A DNA stretch of 64,000 nucleotides from NCBI GenBank assembly GCA_030604135.1, contig JAUVWL010000007.1, positions 92,279 to 156,278 of the forward strand, given 5' to 3'. Of this stretch, positions 2,355 through 15,363 are shown in pieces. Position numbers and translations under genes: made by a program. The stretch's first letter is position 1, and the number at the start of each line of letters is the position of its first letter. The stretch is from Burkholderiales bacterium (GTDB lineage Bacteria > Pseudomonadota > Gammaproteobacteria > Burkholderiales > Burkholderiaceae_C). Under the pieces are notes generated by a model. It saw only the letters and a list, made by a program, of their open reading frames with translations. It did no database searches and was not told where the DNA came from.

Positions 2355-3569
2355 TCACACCTCCTTGACCACGTCGGCGGTGACCTTCGGAGAACCCAGG
2401 TCAGCCGCCAGGTTCATGCAGGCAGTCAGCAGGTTGTTCACCGCCAGCGGGTACAGCAGGCTGACAGCCTGTTGCTTGCCGAAGCCCCCACGTCCTTGAC
2501 CTGGTCGAGTGGTCATGAGGCGGGTGCGGATCATGTCGATCGCCCCCTGGTCGACGACCTCGGCAACCGGCTTGCCTGCCCGGTCGAACTTGAACCGGAT
2601 GTAGTCTTCCAGCCGGGTGTCCAGCGGCTGCAGTTCGATGAGCTCACAGCGCTGGACCACCTCGCGCACCCGGGGGTCGCTCTCGTTGAGCTTGTCGCGC
2701 AGTTCGCTCTGGCCGATCAGGATGATGGACAGGACCTTGCAGAACCCGTCCTCGATTTCGAAGAAGCGCTTGAGGTGCTTGAGCGTGGGGATGGGCAGGC
2801 CGTGTGCCTCTTCAATGACCAGGACATGCTGGTTGCCGCTGCGGTGGCTGTCGCGCAGCGCGGAACGGACCTGCCGAAAGCGCTTCTCCGGACTGCTGTG
2901 GACCGTCTGCAGCGGCGCTACGTCGGCCAGGATGGCCTCTGCGATATGCCCGGCCTTGAGGGTCTTGCCCTTGGTGTCGTTGTCCTCCATGCCCTCGACG
3001 CTGGGCTGGATGACGATCACCCGGGCGTTCTCACGGCTGATGCGGTCGATCAGATCCTTGCGCAGCGTGCTCTTGCCCGAGCCGCTCTCGCCCACGACAG
3101 CGATGAAGCCGCCGTGGCGAGCGGTCTGCCACATCCCTTCGCGCACGTAGCGGATGTCAGGGGAGACGAACACATCCTCGTGGCTGGTGACCGATTCATC
3201 GGCCAGGGGGTCACGGAACAGCCCAAAGTGCTTCTTGGCAGCTGGTGCCAGGCCTTGTTTTCGCAGTAGCATTGCATGGTCCTCTTCGTCAGTGGTTGAT
3301 GAAACCGGGGACACCGCCGGGGCCACGTCTTGCACACGCGGCTCCGGCACCTCTTCAAAAACGGTGGCCAGCGCCCGGTCGCCGACTCCGCAGTCCTTCA
3401 AAAACGCGATGCACACGCCCTTGAGGGCCTCTATGTCCATCGTTCGCGGCCACTGGCCGTGGTTGATCAGGGCGGCCAGCGTGGGCCGCGCAATCCCCAT
3501 TTCTCGCGCCATGTCCTCCTGGCGGATGGCGTGTTCCTTCATGACCTGTTTGAGTTGCAGGGTGGACAT
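2355..3569 (-). CDS. MuB-like AAA+ DNA transposition ATPase with N-terminal HTH (404 aa)
   Basis: Walker A VVGESGSGKST, Walker B-like VLVIEEAH. Start overlaps the transposase stop (ATGA). Confidence 0.85.
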   Translation of the reverse strand: MSTLQLKQVMKEHAIRQEDMAREMGIARPTLAALINHGQWPRTMDIEALKGVCIAFLKDCGVGDRALATVFEEVPEPRVQDVAPAVSPVSSTTDEEDHAMLLRKQGLAPAAKKHFGLFRDPLADESVTSHEDVFVSPDIRYVREGMWQTARHGGFIAVVGESGSGKSTLRKDLIDRISRENARVIVIQPSVEGMEDNDTKGKTLKAGHIAEAILADVAPLQTVHSSPEKRFRQVRSALRDSHRSGNQHVLVIEEAHGLPIPTLKHLKRFFEIEDGFCKVLSIILIGQSELRDKLNESDPRVREVVQRCELIELQPLDTRLEDYIRFKFDRAGKPVAEVVDQGAIDMIRTRLMTTRPGQGRGGFGKQQAVSLLYPLAVNNLLTACMNLAADLGSPKVTADVVKEV

Positions 3570-5419
3570 CAGGCGCCTCCCACTGCGCGCAGCGGTTGCA
3601 TGGTCCTGCCAGCCTTGATCTCATCGGCGATCGTCTGCAGGGCGTCTTCCTGCACGCCGCCTGGGTGCCGCTGTGCCAACCAGGCAAAGTGCTCTGCTGT
3701 CCAGGCATCGCCCACCAGCGCGCGCAACCGCTTGGCCGCCTCGACATGGGACAGCGGCGCCGCCTGCACCTCGCGCACCGAGCGTCCGGCCACGCGAACC
3801 GCCTCGGTCTGCACCTCGGTGGCCACCGGCAAGAGGCGAGCGGGGGCCTCGTGCTCGGCCAGTGGTGTGTGGGCTACCATGCCCTTGCCCCCATTGAAGT
3901 CGGCAAACGGGCGCGCGCTCTTCTCGCGCAGGGCTTCGGCACCGTCCACCGTGGTGCCCTCGCCATAGGCCGCAACCGCCAGTCGGCGGGCCACCGCCTC
4001 ACCGGCCGTCTCCGGTGCGCGGTGGTAGCCCTCACCAATCAGCTGAGCTGAGAGGCTGCGGCCTGCCGCGTCGAAGTCGCGCTGCGGCTCAACCTCCACC
4101 AGCAACGGCTCGGCCCCAGGGCGGGCAATCTCCACCCGCAGCAAGCCGTCGCGCATCAGCAGGGGCGTCACGGTCACCCTCTGCCGGTTGTGGATGAATT
4201 CCGCCCACGCTCGCAGGTCATAGCGCGCGGCCCGGCCCAGCTCCGGGTGAGCAAAGGTGATCTGCAGGTTGTTGACCTGGCGCTCACGCTCGCGCCCGGC
4301 CATGAACCACTGGCACACCTCGCGACTTGGCAACTCCACCAGTGCGCCAGGCGCTCTCAAGATCAGGTTCCACAGGTCATCGCGCACCATCGGTTCACCG
4401 CTGGCACGCACCAGTCGAGCGTCTACGTGCTTGATCAGGTTGGCGTTCCAGGCACGCGACCAGGCCAGGGCTGAAGCGTTCAGCTCTTCTACCGAGTTCA
4501 CAGGCTCCAGCTTCAGTCGGCTCTCGAAGTGCGTCTCCACTAGGTTGTTCGCCTGCTCGACGCTGCCCTTGGCCCAGGAGTGGCCGGCCGCATGCGTCTC
4601 GTGCCGCACACCCAGACCGTCAAGCAGGTTCTTGATCGCGTGGCTCGTGTTGGCACTGCCCTTGTCCCATAGCAACAGCTTGGGCACGCCGAAGTTCAGA
4701 CGTCCCTCCTGGCGACCCCAGGTCCACATCAGAAAGTCGAACAGCACCCCCTGGTTCTCACCCGCGCTCTCGAAATAGCGCACATCGACCACCCCGCTGA
4801 AGTGGTCCACCCGCACGTAGCGCCACACCTTGAGCTTCACCTTGGCGTAGTTCTCGTGCTTGTTCTTGTAGAACTTCGCCTCGGTCATCAGGTGCTGCTT
4901 GCCGCCCATGTAGTACAGCAGGCAAAGCGACGGGTCGATCTGGTGCACGTGGTTCACCATTTCGCTGCGCAGCTCGGTCGTCACGCGTGACGACATGACC
5001 GAGGCCGCATCCATCCGCCGCTCGCGCAGCAGCCGCGCCACCTGGCTCTGGCTCACGTTGACCGTGATACCGTTCATGTCGGCCACGTTCATGGCCACCC
5101 CAATGGGCATGGTCTGCTTGCCGTTGAGGCGAACCCCTTCGCGCTTCATGGCGGCGATCGCCTGCAGGCTCTCATCGGGCAGGCGGCTGCTGCCCTTGTC
5201 GGTGCGCGCCTTGCGGCCGCTGTCGTAGTCCGCGTACTGGCGCAACCAGTTGTAGACCGTGTTCGTGCTGCGACCCAGGCCCATGGCATACCGCTCCACC
5301 ATGGACCGACGATCGCCATGCGCGGCTGCGTTGAGCCGGTCGCGCAGGGCCACCAGGTCAACCAGCGCGTCCGCGCTCAGCGGCATGTTGTTGTTGCTTG
5401 CCATGGCGACCTCGCTCAC
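3569..5419 (-). CDS. MuA-like DDE transposase (616 aa; alternative ATG at 5404 with GAGG SD)
   Basis: rve/DDE-type core (…HQIDPSL…WRYVRVDHFSG…WDKGSANTSH…). Size and position immediately upstream of the B-like ATPase. Confidence 0.9.
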   Translation of the reverse strand: MSEVAMASNNNMPLSADALVDLVALRDRLNAAAHGDRRSMVERYAMGLGRSTNTVYNWLRQYADYDSGRKARTDKGSSRLPDESLQAIAAMKREGVRLNGKQTMPIGVAMNVADMNGITVNVSQSQVARLLRERRMDAASVMSSRVTTELRSEMVNHVHQIDPSLCLLYYMGGKQHLMTEAKFYKNKHENYAKVKLKVWRYVRVDHFSGVVDVRYFESAGENQGVLFDFLMWTWGRQEGRLNFGVPKLLLWDKGSANTSHAIKNLLDGLGVRHETHAAGHSWAKGSVEQANNLVETHFESRLKLEPVNSVEELNASALAWSRAWNANLIKHVDARLVRASGEPMVRDDLWNLILRAPGALVELPSREVCQWFMAGRERERQVNNLQITFAHPELGRAARYDLRAWAEFIHNRQRVTVTPLLMRDGLLRVEIARPGAEPLLVEVEPQRDFDAAGRSLSAQLIGEGYHRAPETAGEAVARRLAVAAYGEGTTVDGAEALREKSARPFADFNGGKGMVAHTPLAEHEAPARLLPVATEVQTEAVRVAGRSVREVQAAPLSHVEAAKRLRALVGDAWTAEHFAWLAQRHPGGVQEDALQTIADEIKAGRTMQPLRAVGGA

Positions 5420-6304: not shown

Positions 6305-6607
6305 TCAGCCCAGCAGGTAGTTGCGGCGCATGTCCTCCAGCTGCTGCGCACACTTCTCGAACGCGCGCAGGCTGCGCACGCTCAGCTGGCTGAAGCGCGT
6401 GGTGATCCGAAAACGCCCCTCGGGCGTCTTCTCGACCCAGCCCTTGTCCATGAGCAGCTCGGCATCACGGGTGACGTAGCTGGCCGGCACAGACAGGGCG
6501 GTGGCGATATCCTTGTTGCTCATGCCCAAGGGAAGCTCTCCGCTGAGCAGCTCCAGCATGGACAGAACGCGCAGCACCTGGGCACCGGTCTTGTCCTGGG
6601 CGCTCAT
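6305..6607 (-). CDS. winged-helix (IclR/MarR-N-like) DNA-binding protein (100 aa)
   Basis: Pattern LRVLSMLELLSG…MSNKDIATALSVPASYVTRDAELLMDKGWVEK. ATGA overlap with the Ner-like gene. Confidence 0.6.
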   Translation of the reverse strand: MSAQDKTGAQVLRVLSMLELLSGELPLGMSNKDIATALSVPASYVTRDAELLMDKGWVEKTPEGRFRITTRFSQLSVRSLRAFEKCAQQLEDMRRNYLLG

Positions 6608-6903
6608 GCCAGCGCTCCCACTGCTGCGTTCTTGCGGCGCGGCAGCTTGGCCGGGTCAGCCGCCTCGGCCATGGACGGGTCCGGCTTGAGCCCGAGCACG
6701 ATGGCGGCCAGGTGCGCATGGCCTCGGGTGCCCTTGAGTTGCCCATTTGGCCGAAGCATGTCCTGCAGCACCAGGCGATTCAGGCCGTTGGCCCGCGCCA
6801 GCTGGCTGATGCTCAGTCCATGCGCCAGGATGAAGGTGCGCGCGCTCTGCACCGTCTGCGGGTACGGCAGGCGCGTGATGACAGCGGTGGGCTTGGTCTT
6901 CAT
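6604..6903 (-). CDS. Ner/Nlp-like early regulator (99 aa)
   Basis: GLSISQLARANGLNRLVLQDML…LAAIVLGLKP resembles Mu Ner/Nlp. First gene of the leftward early operon, divergent from the XRE gene. Confidence 0.65.
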   Translation of the reverse strand: MKTKPTAVITRLPYPQTVQSARTFILAHGLSISQLARANGLNRLVLQDMLRPNGQLKGTRGHAHLAAIVLGLKPDPSMAEAADPAKLPRRKNAAVGALA

Positions 6904-6953
6904 GGTGTGTTTGAAAGTGGTAAATTGATGTTTCTAAGAATCAGGAGGAACGC

Positions 6954-7436
6954 ATGGACATCTCAACGGGTCTCGCCAGCTTCAGCGCGATGTCGGACCT
7001 GTTCGCCTTGCTTGTGAATGAGCGAGACCGCCAGAAAGCGACGGCCATCCAGGTCGAGTTCACGAACAAACTCATTGAGGCTCAGACCCATCTCTCGCAA
7101 CTGCAGGGCACCGTCATCGAGCAGCAGCGGCTTATCGCTTCCCTGGAGCAGCGCGTTCGCGACATGAGCGCTCGCGAGGCTGAGAAAGAGCGTTACGTCC
7201 TTTCCAAAGTGGGAAGTCACAGGGAGTTCTTCGCGTATCGCCTGCGTGGCGCGGCTGAACTTGTTGAGCGCGCTGACGAGATCGACCACTTCCTCTGTCA
7301 GCCTTGCTTCGACAGTGGCAAGAAGGTCGTGCTCAGCGGCAACGGGGAGGGTTACTGGGAGTGCCCTGTCTGCAGGCACGGCAGCCAGACCACTCATTCC
7401 AAAGTGAGCATTCGCCGCCGAATCGCTGGCGGCTAA
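6954..7436 (+). CDS. coiled-coil protein with C-terminal CxxC…CxxC zinc ribbon (160 aa)
   Basis: AGGAGG SD, high GC3 frame. Heptad-rich 30-90, then FLCQPCFDSGKKVVLSGNGEGYWECPVCRHG. Confidence 0.65.
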   Translation: MDISTGLASFSAMSDLFALLVNERDRQKATAIQVEFTNKLIEAQTHLSQLQGTVIEQQRLIASLEQRVRDMSAREAEKERYVLSKVGSHREFFAYRLRGAAELVERADEIDHFLCQPCFDSGKKVVLSGNGEGYWECPVCRHGSQTTHSKVSIRRRIAGG

Positions 7437-7501
7437 AGGCACTGGGTTTTTGTTCATCGTCTGTGTGGTGGATGCGTCTGGTTCGGGATGGATTGATAGT
7501 G

Positions 7502-7530
7502 ATTGTGGTGCAGATATTTGCACCTGTCAA
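7502..7530 (-). promoter_or_regulatory. candidate leftward sigma70 promoter with palindromic operator in the spacer
   Basis: Minus strand reads TTGACA-N17-CACAAT. The spacer is filled by the inverted repeat GGTGCA-N6-TGCACC (7507-7524). Confidence 0.3.
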
Positions 7531-7551
7531 CAAATAGATGAGGATTTCTGC

Positions 7552-7974
7552 GTGATCAATTTCAGGCTGAAGGAAGAGCGCGAGCGACTCGGGCTCACGC
7601 AACCTCAGTTAGCCGAGGTCGCCATGTCCTCAAAGAGGACAGTGATCGACTGGGAGAAGGGTGTTTCGTCACCGACAACGGTGCAGCTCGCTGCACTGGC
7701 CGAAGCGGGCGCAGATGTGCTCTACATCGTGGCTGGCCAACGCAGTCAAGGCGTAGCCGAAGTGGAGTTGCTGCCTTCAGATGAGCGCGTACTGCTGGAC
7801 AGCTACCGTCGATGCAACCCGGAAGCAAAACGCAACCTCATCCAGACGGCCGCGCTGCTGTCGGCCGGCATGGCAGGTCAAGTCGGGGCGAGCATGGTCA
7901 ATAACGCACCAGGCAGCGTGCAGGTGGGTCAACAGTCAGGCAGTCGGGTGACGATCAAGAACAGGGGGAAGTGA
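7552..7974 (+). CDS. XRE-family HTH regulator, likely prophage repressor (140 aa from GTG 7552; ORF open from 7450)
   Basis: HTH LGLTQPQLAEVAMSSKRTVIDWEKG. GAGGA precedes the GTG. Divergent from the early operon. Confidence 0.75.
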   Translation: MINFRLKEERERLGLTQPQLAEVAMSSKRTVIDWEKGVSSPTTVQLAALAEAGADVLYIVAGQRSQGVAEVELLPSDERVLLDSYRRCNPEAKRNLIQTAALLSAGMAGQVGASMVNNAPGSVQVGQQSGSRVTIKNRGK

Positions 7975-8016
7975 GCATTGATCGCGTACAGAAGATTTCT
8001 CAGGGAGCTGTGGGCC

Positions 8017-8460
8017 ATGTTGATGCCCAGGCAGAGCAACAAAGGTGGTGGCACGGTGCAGGTAGGACGACTGAACGGCAACGTCACCGTCATCAACCAC
8101 CACCATGCGAGCGGCCCCTCTCGCGGCGGCCGGGCCTCGGCTGCAGGCCGAAGAGCCACGCCCGCTCAGCGCGAAGTGCTTGATCTGCTGAACAGGGTCC
8201 CGGATCGCATTGCAATCCTGAAGTTCATGGAGAAGGAGTTCAAAACGCGACTGGTGATCGAGCTCCAACCCGATCAGTTGTATCGGGTCAAGCGCTACGT
8301 GCAGGCGGTGCTGACCAACAGTGAAGCACCGGTGACCTTGGAGCCGCCACCGGTCTCGGCCTTTCAGCGAGAACGTGCGCTGAGGCTGGCCAATGAGGCC
8401 GACGAGGCGCAAGCTCGCAGACTGCAACGCTCATCAACCACGTCAGGGAGGAACTCATGA
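8017..8460 (+). CDS. hypothetical protein (147 aa), resembles the C-terminal module of longer XRE-type phage regulators
   Basis: Starts with a repeat of the preceding gene's C-terminal motif (GTVQVG..G.VTVIN), then a His run and a helical domain. Start uncertain (TTG 7978 or ATG 8017). Confidence 0.5.
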   Translation: MLMPRQSNKGGGTVQVGRLNGNVTVINHHHASGPSRGGRASAAGRRATPAQREVLDLLNRVPDRIAILKFMEKEFKTRLVIELQPDQLYRVKRYVQAVLTNSEAPVTLEPPPVSAFQRERALRLANEADEAQARRLQRSSTTSGRNS

Positions 8461-8966
8461 AAAAGAGCATGGTTTTGATCGCGCTGCTCACCCTTGGATC
8501 TGCGCCGGCCTGGGCCGTCAACAAGTGCACCGGTCCTGATGGCAAGGTGGTTTTTCAGGATGCACCATGTTCTGGGAGAGGGGAGACCATCATTGTTCGA
8601 CCTGCCTCGGGCTCGGCTCCTGCACGGGCAGAGGCCATGCCAGGTGCAATGACCGAGGCCCAGCGAATCGAGGCAGCGGTGGCAGAGAGCCAGAAGGACA
8701 GGCGCCGTCGCGAACTGGTTGAGCGTGAAGTGCCCGCAGCTGCGAGCGCTATTCAGGTGAACATCAATCAGTGCCAGGAAGAACAGGACCGGCTGGAGCG
8801 CAGCAAGGGTCAGTACGTGCAGAACCTGTACGGTAAAACGGACGCTGCTCAAAAGGCGGCCGAGCAAGCTGCATCGGCCGCACGGTGCAACACCAAGGAT
8901 CGTGAGCTCCGCGAGAGGCACGCACTACTTTTGGCCGAATGCCGAAAGCTTGGGGGGTGCCCCTGA
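8457..8966 (+). CDS. secreted DUF4124-type protein with coiled-coil C-terminus (169 aa)
   Basis: Signal peptide MKKSMVLIALLTLGSAPAWA, then VNKCTGPDGKVVFQDAPC. ATGA overlap with the upstream gene. Confidence 0.7.
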   Translation: MKKSMVLIALLTLGSAPAWAVNKCTGPDGKVVFQDAPCSGRGETIIVRPASGSAPARAEAMPGAMTEAQRIEAAVAESQKDRRRRELVEREVPAAASAIQVNINQCQEEQDRLERSKGQYVQNLYGKTDAAQKAAEQAASAARCNTKDRELRERHALLLAECRKLGGCP

Positions 8967-8967
8967 T

Positions 8968-9672
8968 ATGAGCCTCAATCACCAAAATTGGGTTACCTGC
9001 ATTGGTCTTGAGAGCCGTGGCAAGTCCCGACCCTTTGGGCTCAGATTTCTGCCCACGACGCTTCTCATGTTCACCTTCATCGTCACCGTTGCCGCGTCCC
9101 CATCTGCTTGGGCAGTCAACAAATGCACCGGGCCCGACGGCAGGGTGGTGTTCCAGGATGCGCCATGCGCCGCCACTGCCAAAAAGTCCGAAACGGTGAA
9201 GACCTGGGACAGCAACCTAAGTGGCCGCTCCACGCGAGGCACGTGGGAATTCCGCCGCACCAAAGATGACATGACCGGCCGCACTGGGTGTCTCGTTATT
9301 TCGCCTGTAACGACCCCCGAGCCGAAAGGCGACTTCAAGTTCATTCCGGTCAATCTGGCGATCTCGGTTGCCCCTACTGGCACTGTCTTCGGGGTGCGCA
9401 CCAGCACGGACAAGGACCTGTTCCACAACGATATCAACGGGATGGGGGTCAAGCTAGACAACCTTGACTTCGTCGCCCTCGATATCAAGGGCGGGCAGCA
9501 TGTCATGGGCAGCTCGAAGGGACCGCAGCTCATTGAGTCACTGTCTTCGGCCCGCACCGTTCGTCTTCGCCTGCGGTTCTGGCCCTATGACACGCTCTAT
9601 GACACGATGGCTATCGACACTGCAGGCTTCGCGCAGGCCTTCGCGCAGGCAAAGTCGTGTGCGGGCATGTGA
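8968..9672 (+). CDS. secreted DUF4124-type protein with unrelated ~150-aa C-terminal domain (234 aa)
   Basis: Hydrophobic leader …LLMFTFIVTVAASPSAWA, then VNKCTGPDGRVVFQDAPC (paralogous to 8457). Starts 2 nt after the previous stop. Confidence 0.7.
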   Translation: MSLNHQNWVTCIGLESRGKSRPFGLRFLPTTLLMFTFIVTVAASPSAWAVNKCTGPDGRVVFQDAPCAATAKKSETVKTWDSNLSGRSTRGTWEFRRTKDDMTGRTGCLVISPVTTPEPKGDFKFIPVNLAISVAPTGTVFGVRTSTDKDLFHNDINGMGVKLDNLDFVALDIKGGQHVMGSSKGPQLIESLSSARTVRLRLRFWPYDTLYDTMAIDTAGFAQAFAQAKSCAGM

Positions 9673-9762
9673 CCTTCTAGAGTTGCTCAAGCAGCTGGGT
9701 GATGCAAGCAGGTGTGGTCGTTCGGCGTTGACCAACAAGAAAGCTGAAACTGGAGGAATCCG

Positions 9763-10749
9763 ATGGACCTGGTGATCCGCAGCGAGGAAGATGCGTGGCT
9801 TGCACTAGAACGAGCCACCTCTGGAGATGGTTTCCAGGATGATGTGCACCTGGTCTGTGACGGATGGCCAGTGTTCAAGATGGACGTCAAAGGGAAAGAC
9901 TGGAGCAGCACAGTTCCGACCCGAATCATGTCGCCGTTCCTGGATGTGCAGCGCGATATCAACCGGGCATACGCGAGTGTTCGCTATGGGACCCCAAACC
10001 TTCGTAAACTCAAGGACGAAGAGCGAGACGACATCGAGGTCGTTGTCAAGGTCGGCGAAGGCTCGTCTCTCTTCGATGCTGAACTATGGAAGCAGCTGAA
10101 CACCATCGCGGAGGCAGCTGTTCTGCGTATGAATGGAAACCAGGTTGTCATCACCGTTCTTGGCATTGGCCTGATGCTCACGGCGCCGGTCCTGTACAGG
10201 GCATGGCTCGCTCATCGCCAGCGCGAGAAGGAGATGGAGACGCAGATTGCGCTGTCAGACCGTGAGACCGAGCGGATGAGGATTTTTGCCGAAGCCCTCG
10301 GAAGGCAGCCCATTCTGGAGGCGACCAAGGAAGACATTTCCGACACGCGCAATCGAATGTTGAAGGTGGTCCGCCCTGGCGACGTGATGACAACTGGAAC
10401 GGTACCCGTCCCAGCAGAGGAAGCCGCGGCCTTGGTTCATCCAGAGCGCGCACGCGCCGAGGACCACTTCATGGAGGGCGAGTTTGTCGTGCTTGGCAAT
10501 CGAACGGACAAGGGTGAGGGGTTCAGGATCACCTTGCGGAGTTTGGAAAACGACATGACGCTGCAGGCTGATGTGCCGCCGGAGCTCCCCTACCACCAGC
10601 AGCAGCTGATCCAGGATGCCGAGTGGGGAAAAAAGAAGGTCCTGCTTAGCATCAACGCTTCCCTGCTGCGAGGCAAGGTGAGTGACGCTGTGGTGATAAG
10701 CGCCAGAGAGGCATCCGACGCGGGTGCTTCAAGCCAGGCAACCCGCTGA
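9763..10749 (+). CDS. single-pass membrane protein of unknown function (328 aa)
   Basis: GGAGGA SD. Central TM VVITVLGIGLMLTAPVLYRAWL between two soluble domains. Third codon positions are more A/T-rich than in flanking genes. Confidence 0.7.
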   Translation: MDLVIRSEEDAWLALERATSGDGFQDDVHLVCDGWPVFKMDVKGKDWSSTVPTRIMSPFLDVQRDINRAYASVRYGTPNLRKLKDEERDDIEVVVKVGEGSSLFDAELWKQLNTIAEAAVLRMNGNQVVITVLGIGLMLTAPVLYRAWLAHRQREKEMETQIALSDRETERMRIFAEALGRQPILEATKEDISDTRNRMLKVVRPGDVMTTGTVPVPAEEAAALVHPERARAEDHFMEGEFVVLGNRTDKGEGFRITLRSLENDMTLQADVPPELPYHQQQLIQDAEWGKKKVLLSINASLLRGKVSDAVVISAREASDAGASSQATR

Positions 10750-10750
10750 A

Positions 10751-10808
10751 ACACTGCCCTCGGCCCAAATACGCCATCGCGCGCGCACGGCATCCTGCCG
10801 TGCATGCC
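10751..10808 (+). promoter_or_regulatory. late-operon leader element, copy 1 (before the lysis cassette)
   Basis: ACACTGCCCTCGGCCCAAATAC…CGCGCGC plus hairpin GCACGGCA-TCC-TGCCGTGC, directly followed by ATG 10804. About 50 of 58 nt identical to copy 3 at 26500. Confidence 0.6.
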
Positions 10809-11286
10809 TACCCAGAACCCCACCTCTGCTGAGCGCCGGCTCTCGCCGCACTTCACCCTCGCTGAGCTGACGGTCAGCCAAACGGCCGCCAGGCGCGGCA
10901 TCCGCAATGCGCCAGTGGGCACGGCCCTGGCCAACCTGCAGCGCCTGGCGCTGTTCCTGGAGCAGGTGCGCCGGGTTCTGTTGAACTCGCCCATATTGGT
11001 CAGCTCGGGCTACCGGTCACAGGCGCTGAACAACCTCATTGGAGGGGCGTACAACTCGGCCCACACGCGCGGCCTAGCGGTCGACTTCATCGCCCCGCGC
11101 TTTGGCACGCCCAAGCAGATCGTGGCGGCCATCCGGGACAGCTCTCTGCAGTTTGACCAGGTCATCCATGAGGGTACGTGGGTGCACCTGGCCATAGCGG
11201 AGGAGAGCAAGATGCCCCGCCGCGAGGTGCTGACCGCCGTGTTCCGGGGTGGAATGCCCACGCAGTACCTCAAGGGTCTGGCATGA
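10804..11286 (+). CDS. peptidase M15-family endolysin (160 aa)
   Basis: Peptidase_M15_3-like motifs (SGYRS…NSAHTRGLAVDF…H). First gene of the lysis cassette. Confidence 0.85.
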   Translation: MPTQNPTSAERRLSPHFTLAELTVSQTAARRGIRNAPVGTALANLQRLALFLEQVRRVLLNSPILVSSGYRSQALNNLIGGAYNSAHTRGLAVDFIAPRFGTPKQIVAAIRDSSLQFDQVIHEGTWVHLAIAEESKMPRREVLTAVFRGGMPTQYLKGLA

Positions 11287-11705
11287 GCGGGGTCAAGCTG
11301 ATCCCCGACTGGCGCCTGGCCTGGCGGTTCCTGAGCGTGCAGGCCGCCATGCTGCTGGCTCTGCTCTCGGGTATCCAGGCCGAGGTGCTGCCGCTGGTGG
11401 CGCCGCTGTTTCCCGACAGCAAGTGGCCGATCATCTCGGGTGGCCTCGCCTTGCTGGTGGTGCTGCTGCGCCTGCTGGCACAAGATGGCCTGGCCACGGC
11501 TCGCGCCGAGATAGAGCTCGATGCGCTCGAGGCCCAAACCGATCGCGTGCCACTGGACCAGCACATGCCTGTGCCCGCGCCTTCAGGTCAGATGCTGCCT
11601 TCTGGCCGCTTCGAACGCTGGCTGGGCGCTGTCGTGCTGGTGCTGATTGTGTTGTTTGTCTGCGCCTTGGCGGCCTTCACCTGGTTTGTCTGGGGGATCA
11701 GGTGA
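11283..11705 (+). CDS. holin-like membrane protein (140 aa, 3 predicted TM)
   Basis: ATGA overlap with the endolysin. Hydrophobic helices at about 15-32, 50-68 and 112-138. Confidence 0.6.
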   Translation: MSGVKLIPDWRLAWRFLSVQAAMLLALLSGIQAEVLPLVAPLFPDSKWPIISGGLALLVVLLRLLAQDGLATARAEIELDALEAQTDRVPLDQHMPVPAPSGQMLPSGRFERWLGAVVLVLIVLFVCALAAFTWFVWGIR

Positions 11706-12940: not shown

Positions 12941-13528
12941 ATGGGCCGCAAATCCAGCGTCAGCCGCCTGCCGGCCGAGGTCAAGAGCTACATCGAGGCC
13001 ATGCTCGCCACCGGCGCACAGACCCTCGACGAGCTGATCGCCGACCTGAGAGAGCGCTTCCCGGCCGAAGCCAAGGCCGGCGATCTGCCCAGCCGCAGTG
13101 CGTTGCACCGCTACGGCAGCAAGCTCGATCGCCGCCTGGCCGCCATCAGGGCCAGCACCGAGGCCGCCAAGCTCATCCAGGCCCAGGCTGGCGACGACCA
13201 GGACGCCCGCAGCGAGGCACTGACCGCCCTGGTGCAGACCGAGCTGTTCGAGGCCATCCTGGCGCTGCAGGAGGCCGACGACGTGGATCTGCCCGAAGGC
13301 GCCAGCGCCGACGAGATCGCATCTGCCCGGGTCGACCTGCTCAGCAAGGCGGCCCGCAACATCGCCACGCTCACCCGCTCCAGCATCGGCCTCAAGAAGT
13401 TCCAGTCCGAAGTCCGCGCCAAAGCCCAGGCCGCCGCCGACACCGTCGACAAGCTCGCCAAGAAAGGCGGCCTCACCGCCGACACCGCCGCGCAGATTCG
13501 CCGCGAGATCCTTGGCATCGCCGTCTGA
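12941..13528 (+). CDS. Mu gp27-like small terminase subunit (DUF3486-like, 195 aa)
   Basis: MGRKSSVSRLPAEVKSYIEAMLATGAQTLDELIADL is typical of DUF3486 proteins. Lies upstream of the large terminase. Confidence 0.7.
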   Translation: MGRKSSVSRLPAEVKSYIEAMLATGAQTLDELIADLRERFPAEAKAGDLPSRSALHRYGSKLDRRLAAIRASTEAAKLIQAQAGDDQDARSEALTALVQTELFEAILALQEADDVDLPEGASADEIASARVDLLSKAARNIATLTRSSIGLKKFQSEVRAKAQAAADTVDKLAKKGGLTADTAAQIRREILGIAV

Positions 13529-13577: not shown

Positions 13578-13820
13578 ATGAACTTCCCCGACCTGCGCCC
13601 CCAGACCTTCGGCCAGAAAGCCGTGGGCTTGCAGTTCAACCCCAGCAACCAGGACGACGTGGTCTTGGCCAAGGCCGAAGCCGCCGCCCTGATCGACCGC
13701 GCCCACCAGCTGCGCCAGAACACCGAAAACCCGGAGATCAAGCGCATGGCCTCGCTGGCGATCACGCACGCGCAGGAAGCCCAGATGTGGCTGGTCAAGG
13801 CCCAGACCTGGAAGGACTGA
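13578..13820 (+). CDS. small helical protein of unknown function (80 aa)
   Basis: AAGGAG SD. MNFPDLRPQTFGQKAVGLQFNPSNQDD…RMASLAITHAQEAQMWLVKAQTWKD. Confidence 0.6.
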   Translation: MNFPDLRPQTFGQKAVGLQFNPSNQDDVVLAKAEAAALIDRAHQLRQNTENPEIKRMASLAITHAQEAQMWLVKAQTWKD

Positions 13821-13827
13821 GCGCCCA

Positions 13828-15363
13828 ATGACCGACGCGGCCCTCGTCCCCTTCGAAGTCCCGAACACCGCGCTCCTGCCGGTGCCGGGCGCCGTGCTCA
13901 TGGGCTACCAGCAGCGCTGGGTGGCCGACCGCTCGCCGCTGAAGGTGATGGAGAAAAGCCGCCGCACGGGTATCACCTGGGGCGAGGCGTCCGACAACGT
14001 GCTGACCGCCGCCAGCGAGCGCACGGCGGGCGGGCAGAACGTCTACTACATCGCCTACAACCAGGACATGACCATCGAGTACATCCAGGCCTGCTCGATG
14101 TGGGCTCGGGTGTTCAACTACGCGGCCGGCGAGATCGAAGAGGGCATCTGGGACGACGAGGCCGACGCCGACAAGGCCATCAAGACGTACACGATCAAGT
14201 TCCCCTCGGGCTTCCGCATCGTCGCGCTGTCCAGCCGGCCAAGCAACCTGCGCGGACGCCAGGGCGTGATCGTGATCGACGAAGCCGCCTTCCACGACCA
14301 GCTCAAGGAATTGCTCAAGGCAGCGCTGGCCATGCTGATCTGGGGCGGCCAGGTGCACGTCATCAGCACCCACAACGGCGACGACAACCCGTTCAATGAG
14401 CTGATCACCGACATCCGCGCCGGCCGCCGCGCCGGCACCGTGCACCGCGTCGACTTCCAGGAAGCCGTGGCCGACGGCCTGTACCAGCGCGTGTGCATGC
14501 GCCTGGGCAAGCCCTGGACCGAGCCCGACCAGGCCGTCTGGGTGGCCGGCGTGTACAGCTTCTACGGCGAGGGCGCGGCCGAGGAGCTGGACTGCATCCC
14601 CGCCAACGGCTCGGGCGCCTGGCTCTCGCGCGCCCTGATCGAAAGCCGAATGAGCGCCGACACGCCCGTGCTGCGCTGGGCCTGCAAGCCCGGCTTCGAG
14701 CTGCTCTCCGACCACATTCGCGCCGCCGAATGTCGCGACTGGCTCGAAGGCCAGATGCTTCCGCATCTGGAGCGCCTACCGCCCGAGGCGCTCAGCTTTG
14801 ATGGCGAAGACTTCGGCCGCTCCGGAGACCTCTCGGTGCACGTGCCGCTGATCCAGCACCAGAACCTGGTGCGCCGCGTGCCGTTCACCGTGGAACTGCG
14901 CAACGTGCCCTTCCGCCAACAGGAGCAGGTTGCCTTCTATCTGCTTGACCGCCTGCCGCGCTTCATGGGTGGGGCCTTCGACGCCCGGGGAAACGGGCAG
15001 GCTCTCGCTGAGTTCGCCATGCAACGCTACGGCGCCACGCGCATCCAGCAGATCATGCTCAGCGAGAGCTGGTACCGAGAACACATGCCACCGGTCAAGG
15101 CCGCCCTGGAAGACGGCAACCTTGTCGATTTGCCCAAAGACGCCGACACACTGGCCGACCTGCGCGCGGTGCAGGTGGTGCGTGGCGTGCCGCGCATCCC
15201 CGACGTGCGCACCAAGGGCGAAGACAAGGGCAAACGCCACGGCGACGCGGCCGTGGCCGTGGCCCTGGCGTACTACGCCAGCCGCGAGCTGAACGCCGGG
15301 CCGGTCACCGTGGGCAGCCGCCAGCGCAAGGGCAGCATTCGCAGCCAGCTGGCCGGTTACTGA
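13828..15363 (+). CDS. large terminase subunit, Mu gp28-like (511 aa)
   Basis: Size and position. Walker-B-like GVIVIDEAAF and a C-terminal nuclease-like region. Confidence 0.85.
   Translation: MTDAALVPFEVPNTALLPVPGAVLMGYQQRWVADRSPLKVMEKSRRTGITWGEASDNVLTAASERTAGGQNVYYIAYNQDMTIEYIQACSMWARVFNYAAGEIEEGIWDDEADADKAIKTYTIKFPSGFRIVALSSRPSNLRGRQGVIVIDEAAFHDQLKELLKAALAMLIWGGQVHVISTHNGDDNPFNELITDIRAGRRAGTVHRVDFQEAVADGLYQRVCMRLGKPWTEPDQAVWVAGVYSFYGEGAAEELDCIPANGSGAWLSRALIESRMSADTPVLRWACKPGFELLSDHIRAAECRDWLEGQMLPHLERLPPEALSFDGEDFGRSGDLSVHVPLIQHQNLVRRVPFTVELRNVPFRQQEQVAFYLLDRLPRFMGGAFDARGNGQALAEFAMQRYGATRIQQIMLSESWYREHMPPVKAALEDGNLVDLPKDADTLADLRAVQVVRGVPRIPDVRTKGEDKGKRHGDAAVAVALAYYASRELNAGPVTVGSRQRKGSIRSQLAGY

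What the first reader, a model, noticed from the sequence alone, without database searches (positions are those of the whole stretch)
6954..10749. Uncharacterised repressor-side accessory operon between the immunity gene and the lysis cassette: best candidate for a novel prophage exclusion/defence module
Six co-directional genes sit on the same strand as the XRE repressor and face away from the early operon, which is the arrangement expected for lysogen-expressed genes. In order they are:
- coiled-coil/Zn-ribbon protein (6954)
- XRE repressor (7552)
- 147-aa protein (8017)
- two secreted DUF4124-type paralogues (8457, 8968)
- 328-aa single-pass membrane protein (9763)

The four genes from 7552 to 9672 are contiguous: 8460/8457 overlap and 8966/8968 abut. 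Gaps of 115 bp (7437-7551) and 90 bp (9673-9762) separate the first and last genes from them. The block ends exactly where the conserved late-operon leader begins (10751). Codon third positions from about 8.9 to 10.7 kb are visibly richer in A/T than in the flanking phage genes, which suggests foreign, moron-like origin.

In temperate phages this slot typically carries superinfection-exclusion or anti-phage cargo. None of the four non-HTH proteins matches a defence family I recognise.
Basis: partly seen in the sequence, partly recalled or inferred. Interest (0 to 1): 0.7.

Follow-up and report, generated by a model that had tools for sequence, protein, structure and literature searches.

The report
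Prophage repressor-side defence-gene hotspot
The six genes are real and form the repressor-side arm of a Mu-like prophage, but they are a patchwork of swappable cassettes rather than one system: the first is a relative of the recently described Rip1 anti-phage pore protein, and the last belongs to a large unstudied family that replaces the rexAB exclusion genes in a lambda-immunity coliphage.

Summary
Six co-directional genes (6954-10749) lie between the divergent early operon of a Mu-like prophage and a conserved late leader plus M15 endolysin. All six have lower GC3 (0.64-0.75) than the flanking phage genes (0.80-0.90).

- **Not one module.** In nine related Mu-like prophages or phages the slot carries different combinations of the same few cassettes.
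- **g160 (6954-7436) is a Rip1-family protein.** Rip1 is "ring interacting pore 1" (Patel et al., Nature 2026). Support: Foldseek to PDB 9oox, probability 1.00; profile E 7e-10; hhalign 97-99% to HK446 gp37 and D3112 orf25. So defence cargo is present, but this gene is not novel.
- **XRE (7552-7974) is the probable repressor.** It is tightly coupled to an orphan partner, whose true start is TTG 7978.
- **Two periplasmic DUF4124 proteins** share only their N-terminal module.
- **g328 (9763-10749) is the real lead.** Its family has at least 1,271 clusters at 50% identity, and no Pfam, NCBIfam, PADLOC or PDB match. The model shows one hydrophobic helix and a C-terminal OB-like barrel. Homologues sit directly after cI in place of rexAB (mEp332, which has lambda cI), after other repressors, and beside R-M genes.

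No function was tested here.

The parts
6904..6953 (.). 50-bp spacer between the ner-like start (6903, - strand) and g160. It contains the AGGAGG ribosome-binding site of g160.
   Evidence: The sequence was read. The stretch AAGTGGTAAATTGATGTTTC..AATCAGGAGG is conserved with the equivalent position of prophage L026, where a different 89-aa ORF follows.
6954..7436 (+). g160: Rip1-family protein (ring interacting pore 1). It has a long N-terminal helix (residues 3-79) and a C-terminal beta/zinc-ribbon domain with H112-x2-C115-x2-C118...C137-x2-C140.
   Evidence: phrog_1244, E 2.8e-32. AF2 pLDDT 82.8. Foldseek to PDB 9oox_M/L (HK446 Rip1 with T6 small terminase): E 2.3e-4, probability 1.00, TM 0.53/0.65. 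Profile against PDB sequences: 9oox_L, E 7e-10. hhalign to HK446 gp37: probability 97.2%, E 3.8e-11. hhalign to D3112 orf25: probability 98.9%, E 2.3e-17, 161 columns.
7437..7551 (.). Regulatory gap upstream of the XRE gene. It holds a sigma-70-like promoter on the - strand (-35 TTGACA at 7530, -10 CACAAT ending at 7502). The palindrome GGTGCAGATATTTGCACC (7507-7524) lies in the spacer. This is a candidate early promoter plus operator; that assignment is inferred.
   Evidence: It is the only promoter-like match in 6400-11400, at 10/12 consensus positions. The palindrome was found. The region is conserved with L026 upstream of its XRE orthologue. The palindrome pattern is not statistically enriched in the window.
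7552..7974 (+). XRE/Cro-C1-type HTH protein of 140 aa, with a GTG start and a GAGGA ribosome-binding site. It is the probable prophage repressor.
   Evidence: HTH_3, E 1.3e-9. It matches phrog repressor and regulator families. Orthologues occupy the same position, divergent from the early operon, in L064 (96%), L026 (65%), L023, L065, L019 and Komp_PAO1_1.
7978..8460 (+). g147 (160 aa from TTG 7978; 147 aa from ATG 8017). An orphan protein coupled to the XRE gene; function unknown.
   Evidence: No hit in Pfam, PHROGs, PADLOC or NCBIfam, and no PDB-sequence match below E 0.1. Only 7 clusters in 5.8 billion proteins. It always follows the XRE orthologue, with a 4-bp overlap in L026. The N-terminus upstream of 8017 is conserved.
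8457..8966 (+). DUF4124a: a secreted (AWA|VNKC) DUF4124 protein with a Cys-containing helical C-terminal part.
   Evidence: PF13511, 25.4 bits. Orthologues: L026 (64%), L064 (51%), L031 (30%) and the N-terminus of an L017 protein.
8968..9672 (+). DUF4124b: a secreted DUF4124 module fused to an unrelated beta-rich C-terminal domain (residues about 93-232).
   Evidence: PF13511, 28.0 bits; phrog_11231 on the C-terminal part. The C-terminal domain occurs alone as a secreted 164-aa protein in L017 (34%). The gene is absent from the near-identical relative L064.
9763..10749 (+). g328: member of a large uncharacterised family. It has an N-terminal alpha/beta domain (1-120), one hydrophobic helix (127-148), a helical linker and a C-terminal OB-like barrel (208-316). 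It is a candidate single-gene exclusion or abortive-infection protein.
   Evidence: phrog_6191, E 1.5e-61. No Pfam, PADLOC, NCBIfam or PDB-sequence hit. AF2 pLDDT 90.6. Foldseek found only OB-fold partial matches in PDB and two uncharacterised phage proteins in BFVD. 1,271 clusters at E<=1e-3. Genomic contexts were examined.
10740..10809 (+). Conserved late-region leader just upstream of the M15 endolysin (10804-11286). It marks the right-hand boundary of the variable block.
   Evidence: 80% identity over 70 bp to L017, which has a different endolysin and lacks g328. The endolysin matches Peptidase_M15_3, E 7e-19.

Best explanation
The block 6954-10749 is the lysogeny-side arm of a Mu-like prophage with a BcepMu/B3-type layout. 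Its closest relatives are prophages of Hydrogenophaga and other Betaproteobacteria. It is a recombination hotspot filled with at least five independently exchangeable cassettes, all pointing away from the early operon.

1. **A Rip1-family protein (g160).** By analogy with characterised Rip1, it would stay inert until a superinfecting phage makes ring-shaped packaging proteins (small terminase or portal). It would then assemble around the ring into a membrane pore and abort the infection. The homology is shown; the activity is inferred.
2. **The XRE-type repressor with its coupled orphan partner g147.** The repressor probably binds a palindrome overlapping a leftward sigma-70-like promoter at 7502-7530. 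Position and conservation are shown; the regulatory role is inferred.
3. **A periplasmic DUF4124 protein (DUF4124a).** Function unknown. An envelope-level role such as blocking entry is a guess.
4. **A second periplasmic DUF4124 protein (DUF4124b).** Function unknown, with the same guess.
5. **g328.** It belongs to a very large uncharacterised family of single-hydrophobic-helix proteins with an OB-like C-terminal domain. Members recur directly behind prophage repressors (replacing rexAB in a lambda-immunity phage) and next to restriction-modification genes. I infer a self-contained sensor-effector. The predicted cytoplasmic OB domain would detect a phage nucleic acid or protein. The hydrophobic helices would then oligomerise and compromise the membrane, which is Rex-like in outcome but unrelated in sequence.
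For: **Layout**
- The early genes (ner-like, wHTH, DUF3102, MuA-type and MuB-type) lie on the - strand. Lysis and head genes follow on the + strand.
- GC3 is 0.64-0.745 inside the block and 0.80-0.90 outside it.

**Hotspot and mosaicism** (contents in gene order, written cassette-cassette-cassette)
- L017 (tnpA 81%, terL 87%): another regulator, two secreted proteins, and an Amidase_2 endolysin.
- L064 (g160 99%, XRE 96%, g328 91%): a single DUF4124 gene, only 51% identical to DUF4124a, and no DUF4124b.
- L026: 89aa-XRE-g147-ZnR/TM-DUF4124a.
- L065: Rip1-like-XRE-195-ZnR/TM-g328.
- L031: XRE-266-DUF4124-g328.
- L019: XRE-233-DUF4124-HNH-g328.
- L016: S24 repressor-75aa-g328.
- Klebsiella L023: XRE-lipoprotein-Dam-Rip1-like.
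- Sources.

**Rip1 homology**. The Rip1 mechanism is taken from the review PMC13434031 section 5, citing Patel et al. 2026.

**g328**
- The family is large and uniform in length and architecture, and the model is confident.
- A homologue follows lambda-type cI in mEp332. The cI identity was read, and homology is hhalign probability 98.8%.
- Homologues also directly follow cI in phi458, an S24 repressor in Moraxella phage Mcat17 and an HTH gene in L036.
- Others lie next to type I HsdR and next to SLFN_AlbA_2.
- One lies in Tn7-like cargo with SNase and a type IIG R-M gene.
Against: - No expression or phenotype data exist for any gene here.
- g328 has no detectable relation to any known defence protein, so its role rests on position alone.
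- In most Mu-like contexts g328 sits immediately before the lysis genes. A census of 76 neighbours shows mostly phage genes and few defence genes, so a phage-intrinsic role is not excluded.
- Charge bias around the hydrophobic helix is modest: 1.7 K+R before it and 3.3 after. Topology is therefore uncertain.
- The orders XRE-x-DUF4124-g328 and Rip1-like-XRE-x-x-g328 recur in several phages. Some functional linkage between cassettes therefore cannot be ruled out.
- The promoter and operator assignment rests on one consensus match and a palindrome that is not statistically enriched.
Confidence: 0.7

Rival explanations
1. The six genes form one co-functional system. An operon-encoded multi-component exclusion machine would combine a cytoplasmic sensor, periplasmic parts and a membrane effector under the XRE regulator.
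For: The genes are co-directional with tight junctions. No terminator-like site lies on the + strand. A similar gene order recurs in L064, L065, L031 and L019.
Against: - Every cassette occurs without the others. g328 stands alone behind cI or beside R-M genes.
- Rip1-like genes occur elsewhere in Klebsiella and Comamonas prophages.
- DUF4124a occurs without g328 in L026 and L017.
- DUF4124b is absent from a near-identical relative.
- Characterised Rip1 acts as a single protein.
Confidence: 0.08
2. g328, and possibly g147, serves the phage's own life cycle rather than defence. Possible roles are tuning the lysis-lysogeny switch or induction, as reported for RexA, or timing lysis.
For: g328 homologues are nearly always next to the repressor or just upstream of the lysis cassette in Mu-like prophages. 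g147 is strictly linked to the XRE gene. The rexAB slot is also associated with switch modulation (abstract of PMC11077077, seen).
Against: g328 homologues also occur outside prophages, beside HsdR, SLFN_AlbA_2 and in Tn7-like cargo, and within head genes in L033. The conserved late leader lies downstream of g328, and relatives lacking g328 keep it. Many related phages do without g328.
Confidence: 0.2
3. The secreted DUF4124 proteins, and possibly g328, are lysogenic-conversion or host-fitness factors acting on the cell envelope, unrelated to phage exclusion.
For: Both DUF4124 proteins have signal peptides. Secreted proteins or lipoproteins occupy this slot in many relatives (L017, L019, L023, L031, Komp_PAO1_1). 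DUF4124 has no assigned function.
Against: There is no positive evidence for any host-fitness role. The DUF4124a cassette is far more diverged (51%) than its neighbours (87-99%) between close relatives. That pattern fits an antagonistic interface better than housekeeping.
Confidence: 0.15

Closest known systems
Rip1 (ring interacting pore 1). Examples are Pseudomonas Mu-like prophages such as D3112 orf25, and Escherichia phage HK446 gp37. Reference: Patel et al., Nature 651:1060, 2026; PDB 9oox.
   Same: g160 is a full-length sequence and structure homologue. It has about the same size, the same long N-terminal helix plus C-terminal Cys4 domain, and is prophage-borne. Like HK446 gp37 and D3112 orf25, it points against the neighbouring lytic operon.
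   Different: Identity to the characterised proteins is only about 23-28%. It sits between the ner-like gene and the repressor gene. D3112 orf25 sits between the terminase genes, and HK446 gp37 beside N. Its trigger, oligomer state and activity are untested.
Lambda RexA/RexB exclusion system
   Same: g328 homologues occupy exactly the rexAB position, directly after a lambda-type cI, in mEp332 and phi458. g328 has a membrane-associating segment plus an OB-like domain. That combination could unite the sensing and membrane roles that Rex splits between two proteins. This functional parallel is inferred.
   Different: There is no sequence relation to RexA or RexB (hhalign probability 0.05% and 0.13%). 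g328 is one protein with one hydrophobic helix, rather than a soluble sensor plus a four-helix membrane protein.
Repressor-adjacent and moron defence genes of temperate phages in general. Examples are BstA downstream of cI in BTP1, SieA/SieB of P22, and the P2/P4 hotspots.
   Same: The same genomic logic applies: variable cargo next to the immunity gene, atypical composition, and independent assortment.
   Different: None of those proteins is detectably related to g147, DUF4124a/b or g328 (PADLOC and Pfam searches). BstA and the Sie proteins were not compared directly.

Membership tests
Rip1 (ring interacting pore 1) | Sequence homology to characterised Rip1 proteins | tested here: met
   g160 family profile against PDB 9oox_L: E 7e-10. 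hhalign to HK446 gp37: probability 97.2%, E 3.8e-11. hhalign to D3112 orf25: probability 98.9%, E 2.3e-17 over 161 columns. Pairwise BLASTP: E 9e-9.
Rip1 (ring interacting pore 1) | Fold: N-terminal long helix plus a C-terminal globular half that contacts the terminase ring | tested here: met
   The AF2 model has helix 3-79 plus a beta/zinc-ribbon domain. Foldseek to 9oox_M: probability 1.00, TM 0.53/0.65, 121 columns. H112, C115, C118, C137 and C140 are invariant in 40 homologues.
Rip1 (ring interacting pore 1) | Prophage-encoded single gene | tested here: met
   g160 and its homologues lie in Mu-like and other prophages. The position within the prophage differs from that of D3112 and HK446.
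Rip1 (ring interacting pore 1) | Assembles as a 12-mer around an oligomeric phage protein (small terminase or portal), forms a membrane pore and protects against phage | not testable with these tools
   The mechanism is known only from the review PMC13434031. It needs biochemistry and plaque assays.
RexA/RexB | Homology to RexA or RexB | tested here: not met
   hhalign of the g328 profile against lambda RexA gives probability 0.05%, and against RexB 0.13%.
RexA/RexB | Encoded directly downstream of cI | tested here: met
   This is true for g328 homologues in mEp332, phi458, Mcat17 and L036. In the window three genes intervene.
DUF4124 (PF13511) | Pfam model above the gathering score | tested here: met
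   25.4 and 28.0 bits against a cut-off of 22.
XRE/Cro-C1 HTH prophage repressor | HTH_3 domain, with the gene divergent from the early (ner/transposase) operon | tested here: met
   HTH_3, E 1.3e-9. The position is conserved in six relatives. Repressor activity was not tested.
Any system in PADLOC-DB 2.0 (g147, DUF4124a/b, g328) | Match to a defence-protein model | tested here: not met
   No significant hit for these four or for five diverse g328 homologues; the only entry is a chance-level Cas3a2 match (E 0.056) for g147.

The most novel reading that the evidence does not exclude
The g328 family is a new, widespread single-gene anti-phage system. The family has at least 1,271 clusters at 50% identity. 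Its members are about 320-350 aa, with an N-terminal alpha/beta domain, one hydrophobic helix and a C-terminal OB-like barrel. It would stand in for RexAB behind prophage repressors and also travel in defence islands, and it would be unrelated to any described defence protein. The neighbouring periplasmic DUF4124 cassettes might be a second, envelope-level layer.
Probability: 0.45. Interest if true: 0.7.

Novelty: new member of a known kind. Interest (0 to 1): 0.5.

Why it matters
The block shows how a Mu-like prophage lineage uses its repressor-side arm as a swap-shop for accessory cassettes. It also extends the newly described Rip1 family to a new subfamily and a new genomic position.

The more useful outcome is a testable lead. 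A very large, unannotated protein family sits in the classic rexAB position of a lambda-immunity coliphage, mEp332. Its function could therefore be probed directly in E. coli K-12 with standard phage panels. If it is a defence gene, annotation pipelines currently miss it in many prophages.

Tried and rejected
- **DNA search against phages.** A search of 6500-11300 against 50,697 phage records found nothing relevant.
- **g328 sequence searches.** Pfam, NCBIfam, PADLOC and PDB-sequence searches returned nothing.
- **g328 structure search.** Foldseek gave only partial OB-fold matches (eIF5A, the LysRS N-domain, the DNA-ligase OB domain), too weak to assign a function.
- **'T2SS GspM' label.** One GenBank record (mEp332) uses this name for the g328 homologue. 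No GspM or other Pfam match was found for it, and PGAP calls it hypothetical.
- **g147.** No family and no PDB match. The XRE-adjacent proteins of L019 and L031 look superficially similar but are not detectably related.
- **DksA/TraR-type reading of g160.** Considered because of the Cys4 spacing. Rejected because there was no Pfam hit and the domain is a beta ribbon. It was superseded by the Rip1 match.
- **Palindrome as a repeated operator.** Only two exact copies exist and the pattern is not enriched.
- **Literature searches.** Searches on mEp332, the rexAB slot and DUF4124 in prophages found no description of the g328 family or of the DUF4124 genes.
- **Primary papers.** The Rip1 primary paper and a related Nature paper are not held in the library.
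- **Neighbour census.** The ORF calling behind the census of g328 neighbours was crude, and most neighbours had no Pfam match.

Full report
**1. The observation**

The six + strand ORFs are present as described. An independent gene caller finds the same set on an identical metagenomic contig. To the left, on the - strand, lies a Mu-type early operon:
- a ner-like HTH gene (6604-6903);
- a winged-helix regulator gene;
- a DUF3102 gene;
- a MuA-type transposase gene (3569-5419);
- a MuB-type AAA gene.

To the right lie an M15 endolysin (10804-11286), DUF7940, Mu gp27-like, terminase, portal and Mu F genes.

GC3 is 0.64-0.745 for all six genes and 0.80-0.90 for the flanking phage genes, so the compositional anomaly spans the whole block. 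Two details need correcting.
- The '147-aa' gene almost certainly starts at TTG 7978, 3 nt after the XRE stop, because the extra N-terminal residues are conserved in homologues.
- The two DUF4124 proteins share only about 36 residues at the N-terminus.

**2. The slot is a mosaic hotspot, not a unit**

I anchored on the transposase and then on the individual proteins, and compared the slot in related elements. The slot contents, written in gene order as cassette-cassette-cassette, are as follows.

| Element | Relation to the window | Slot contents |
|---|---|---|
| L017 (Hydrogenophaga sp. A37) | closest by core genes: tnpA 81%, terL 87% | different regulator; two secreted proteins (one is the C-terminal domain of DUF4124b on its own, the other a DUF4124 protein); different endolysin. 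No g160, no this-type XRE, no g147, no g328 |
| L064 | near-identical: g160 99%, XRE 96%, g147 87%, g328 91% | one DUF4124 gene, only 51% identical to DUF4124a; no DUF4124b |
| L026 | XRE 65%, g147 55% | 89aa-XRE-g147-(zinc-ribbon/TM protein)-DUF4124a |
| L065 | g160 homologue 67%, g328 homologue 62% | Rip1-like-XRE-195aa-(zinc-ribbon/TM)-g328 |
| L031 | g328 homologue 47% | XRE-266aa-DUF4124-g328 |
| L019 | g328 homologue 30% | XRE-233aa-DUF4124-HNH-g328 |
| L016 | g328 homologue 45% | S24 repressor-75aa-g328 |
| Klebsiella L022-24 | g160 homologue 54% | XRE-lipoprotein-Dam-Rip1-like |
| Komp_PAO1_1 | tnpA 43% | XRE plus other small genes |

At the DNA level the window is a patchwork whose similarity to these relatives breaks at gene boundaries. 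Similarity to L017 resumes at 10740-10809, the leader of the late region.

The block is variable cargo. The idea of a single six-gene module fails too.

**3. g160 is a Rip1-family protein**

Pfam gave only noise, while PHROGs placed the protein in an unannotated family. An AF2 model built on 40 homologues (pLDDT 82.8) shows one long helix followed by a small beta/zinc-ribbon domain.

Evidence of homology:
- Foldseek against PDB returned one significant match, chains M and L of 9oox, 'phage HK446 Rip1 in complex with T6 small terminase' (E 2.3e-4, probability 1.00, TM 0.53/0.65).
- The family profile finds the same chain by sequence (E 7e-10).
- hhalign gives 97.2% to HK446 gp37.
- hhalign gives 98.9% (E 2.3e-17, 161 columns) to D3112 orf25. 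That is the Pseudomonas Mu-like phage homologue lying between the terminase genes, the position described for Rip1.

According to the review PMC13434031, citing Patel et al., Nature 2026:
- Rip1 is a prophage-encoded single protein and is harmless on its own.
- It forms a 12-mer around the 11-mer small-terminase ring of an infecting phage. Escape mutations map to portal or small terminase.
- The assembly makes a membrane pore, causing premature lysis.

In all three phages the Rip1-type gene points against the adjacent lytic operon. In the window it lies between the ner-like gene and the repressor. It would be antisense to early transcription if the early promoter is the sigma-70-like site at 7502-7530. 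That placement is an inference.

**4. The XRE gene and g147**

The XRE protein has a clear HTH_3 domain. Its orthologues hold the same position opposite the early operon in at least six relatives. Its upstream gap is conserved with L026. The gap contains the only good promoter-like match in 5 kb. That site faces left, with a perfect 6-6-6 palindrome in its spacer. This fits a repressor and operator arrangement but is not proof.

g147 occurs in only seven protein clusters and is always directly after this XRE type. It has no detectable relatives of known function. I treat it as a repressor-linked factor of unknown role.

**5. The DUF4124 genes**

Both have cleavable signal peptides and the DUF4124 module. 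Secreted proteins or lipoproteins are a recurring feature of this slot in relatives. Between the window and L064 the DUF4124a cassette is much more diverged (51%) than its neighbours (87-99%). That suggests either replacement or fast evolution. No function can be assigned.

**6. g328**

This is the most interesting part.
- **Family size.** The family is large: 80 clusters at 90% identity by word search. An exhaustive profile search gave 1,271 clusters at 50% identity with E<=1e-3, of which 884 had E<=1e-10.
- **Uniformity.** The full-length matches among the 150 best hits listed are mostly about 320-350 aa and align end to end.
- **No annotation.** There is no Pfam, NCBIfam, PADLOC or PDB-sequence match.
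- **Model.** The AF2 model is confident (pLDDT 90.6). It has an alpha/beta N-domain, one hydrophobic helix (127-148), a helical linker and a C-terminal OB-like barrel.
- **Structure search.** Foldseek finds only OB-fold fragments in PDB, and two uncharacterised phage proteins in BFVD.

Its genomic contexts are telling.

| Context | Elements |
|---|---|
| Directly after cI, where lambda has rexA-rexB | mEp332 (repressor essentially lambda cI), phi458 |
| Directly after another repressor-type gene | Mcat17 (S24 repressor), L036 (HTH gene) |
| One to three genes after the repressor, last gene before lysis | several Mu-like prophages |
| Outside prophages | beside type I HsdR; beside an SLFN_AlbA_2 gene; in Tn7-like cargo with SNase and a type IIG R-M gene |

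The mEp332 protein is a true homologue (hhalign 98.8%). RexA and RexB are unrelated to g328. PGAP labels the E. coli copies 'hypothetical protein', and they occur in 18 of 5,426 complete genomes.

The pattern is the one seen for prophage defence genes, but it is circumstantial. A census of neighbours is dominated by phage genes, so a role in the phage's own switch or lysis is not excluded.

**7. Verdict**

It is wrong to treat the block as one novel module.

One gene is a new member of a family published in 2026. One is the repressor, and one is its coupled partner. Two are periplasmic unknowns. One is a well-founded candidate for a new single-gene system, with a ready E. coli model in mEp332.

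All functional statements beyond homology and position are inferences. I found no paper describing the g328 family.

Noticed in passing
window 13578-13820 (+): An 80-aa gene between the Mu gp27-like gene (12941-13528) and the large terminase gene (13828-15363) matches the Acb2/Tad1 hairpin domain (PF24729, E 3.7e-9). These are anti-CBASS and anti-Thoeris sponge proteins. The position, between the small-terminase-like and large terminase genes, is where D3112 carries its Rip1 gene. It may therefore be a second moron site, here holding counter-defence cargo.
   Followed up: partly
window 8457-8966 compared with L064 4793-5338: Between two otherwise near-identical prophages (neighbouring genes 87-99% identical), the DUF4124a-type gene is only 51% identical. 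DUF4124b is present only in the window. This could be cassette replacement or rapid diversification; which one is unresolved.
   Followed up: partly
L016 6733-6960; L026 6345-6794; L065 4335-4835; L028 349-837: A small protein with an N-terminal CxxC...CxxC zinc ribbon and a C-terminal membrane segment recurs in the same slot of several related Mu-like prophages. It is often next to g328 or DUF4124 genes and is absent from the window. L065_166 and L026_149 are 36% identical. Its function is unknown.
   Followed up: no
window 7937-7974 and 8035-8100: The C-terminal tail of the XRE protein (GSVQVGQQSGSRVTIKN) and the N-terminal part of g147 (GTVQVGRLNGNVTVINHHH) share a short 'G-x-VQVG...V-T-(V)-I-N' motif. 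The same pairing is seen in L026. This may reflect an interaction or a duplication across the gene boundary. It was not analysed statistically.
   Followed up: no
window 6895-6953 compared with L026 about 5190-5250: The short spacer between the ner-like start and the first + strand gene is conserved between two prophages, although the gene that follows differs (Rip1-like against an 89-aa ORF). The ner-like gene has no obvious Shine-Dalgarno sequence. It may be a conserved regulatory element of the early/lysogeny switch.
   Followed up: partly
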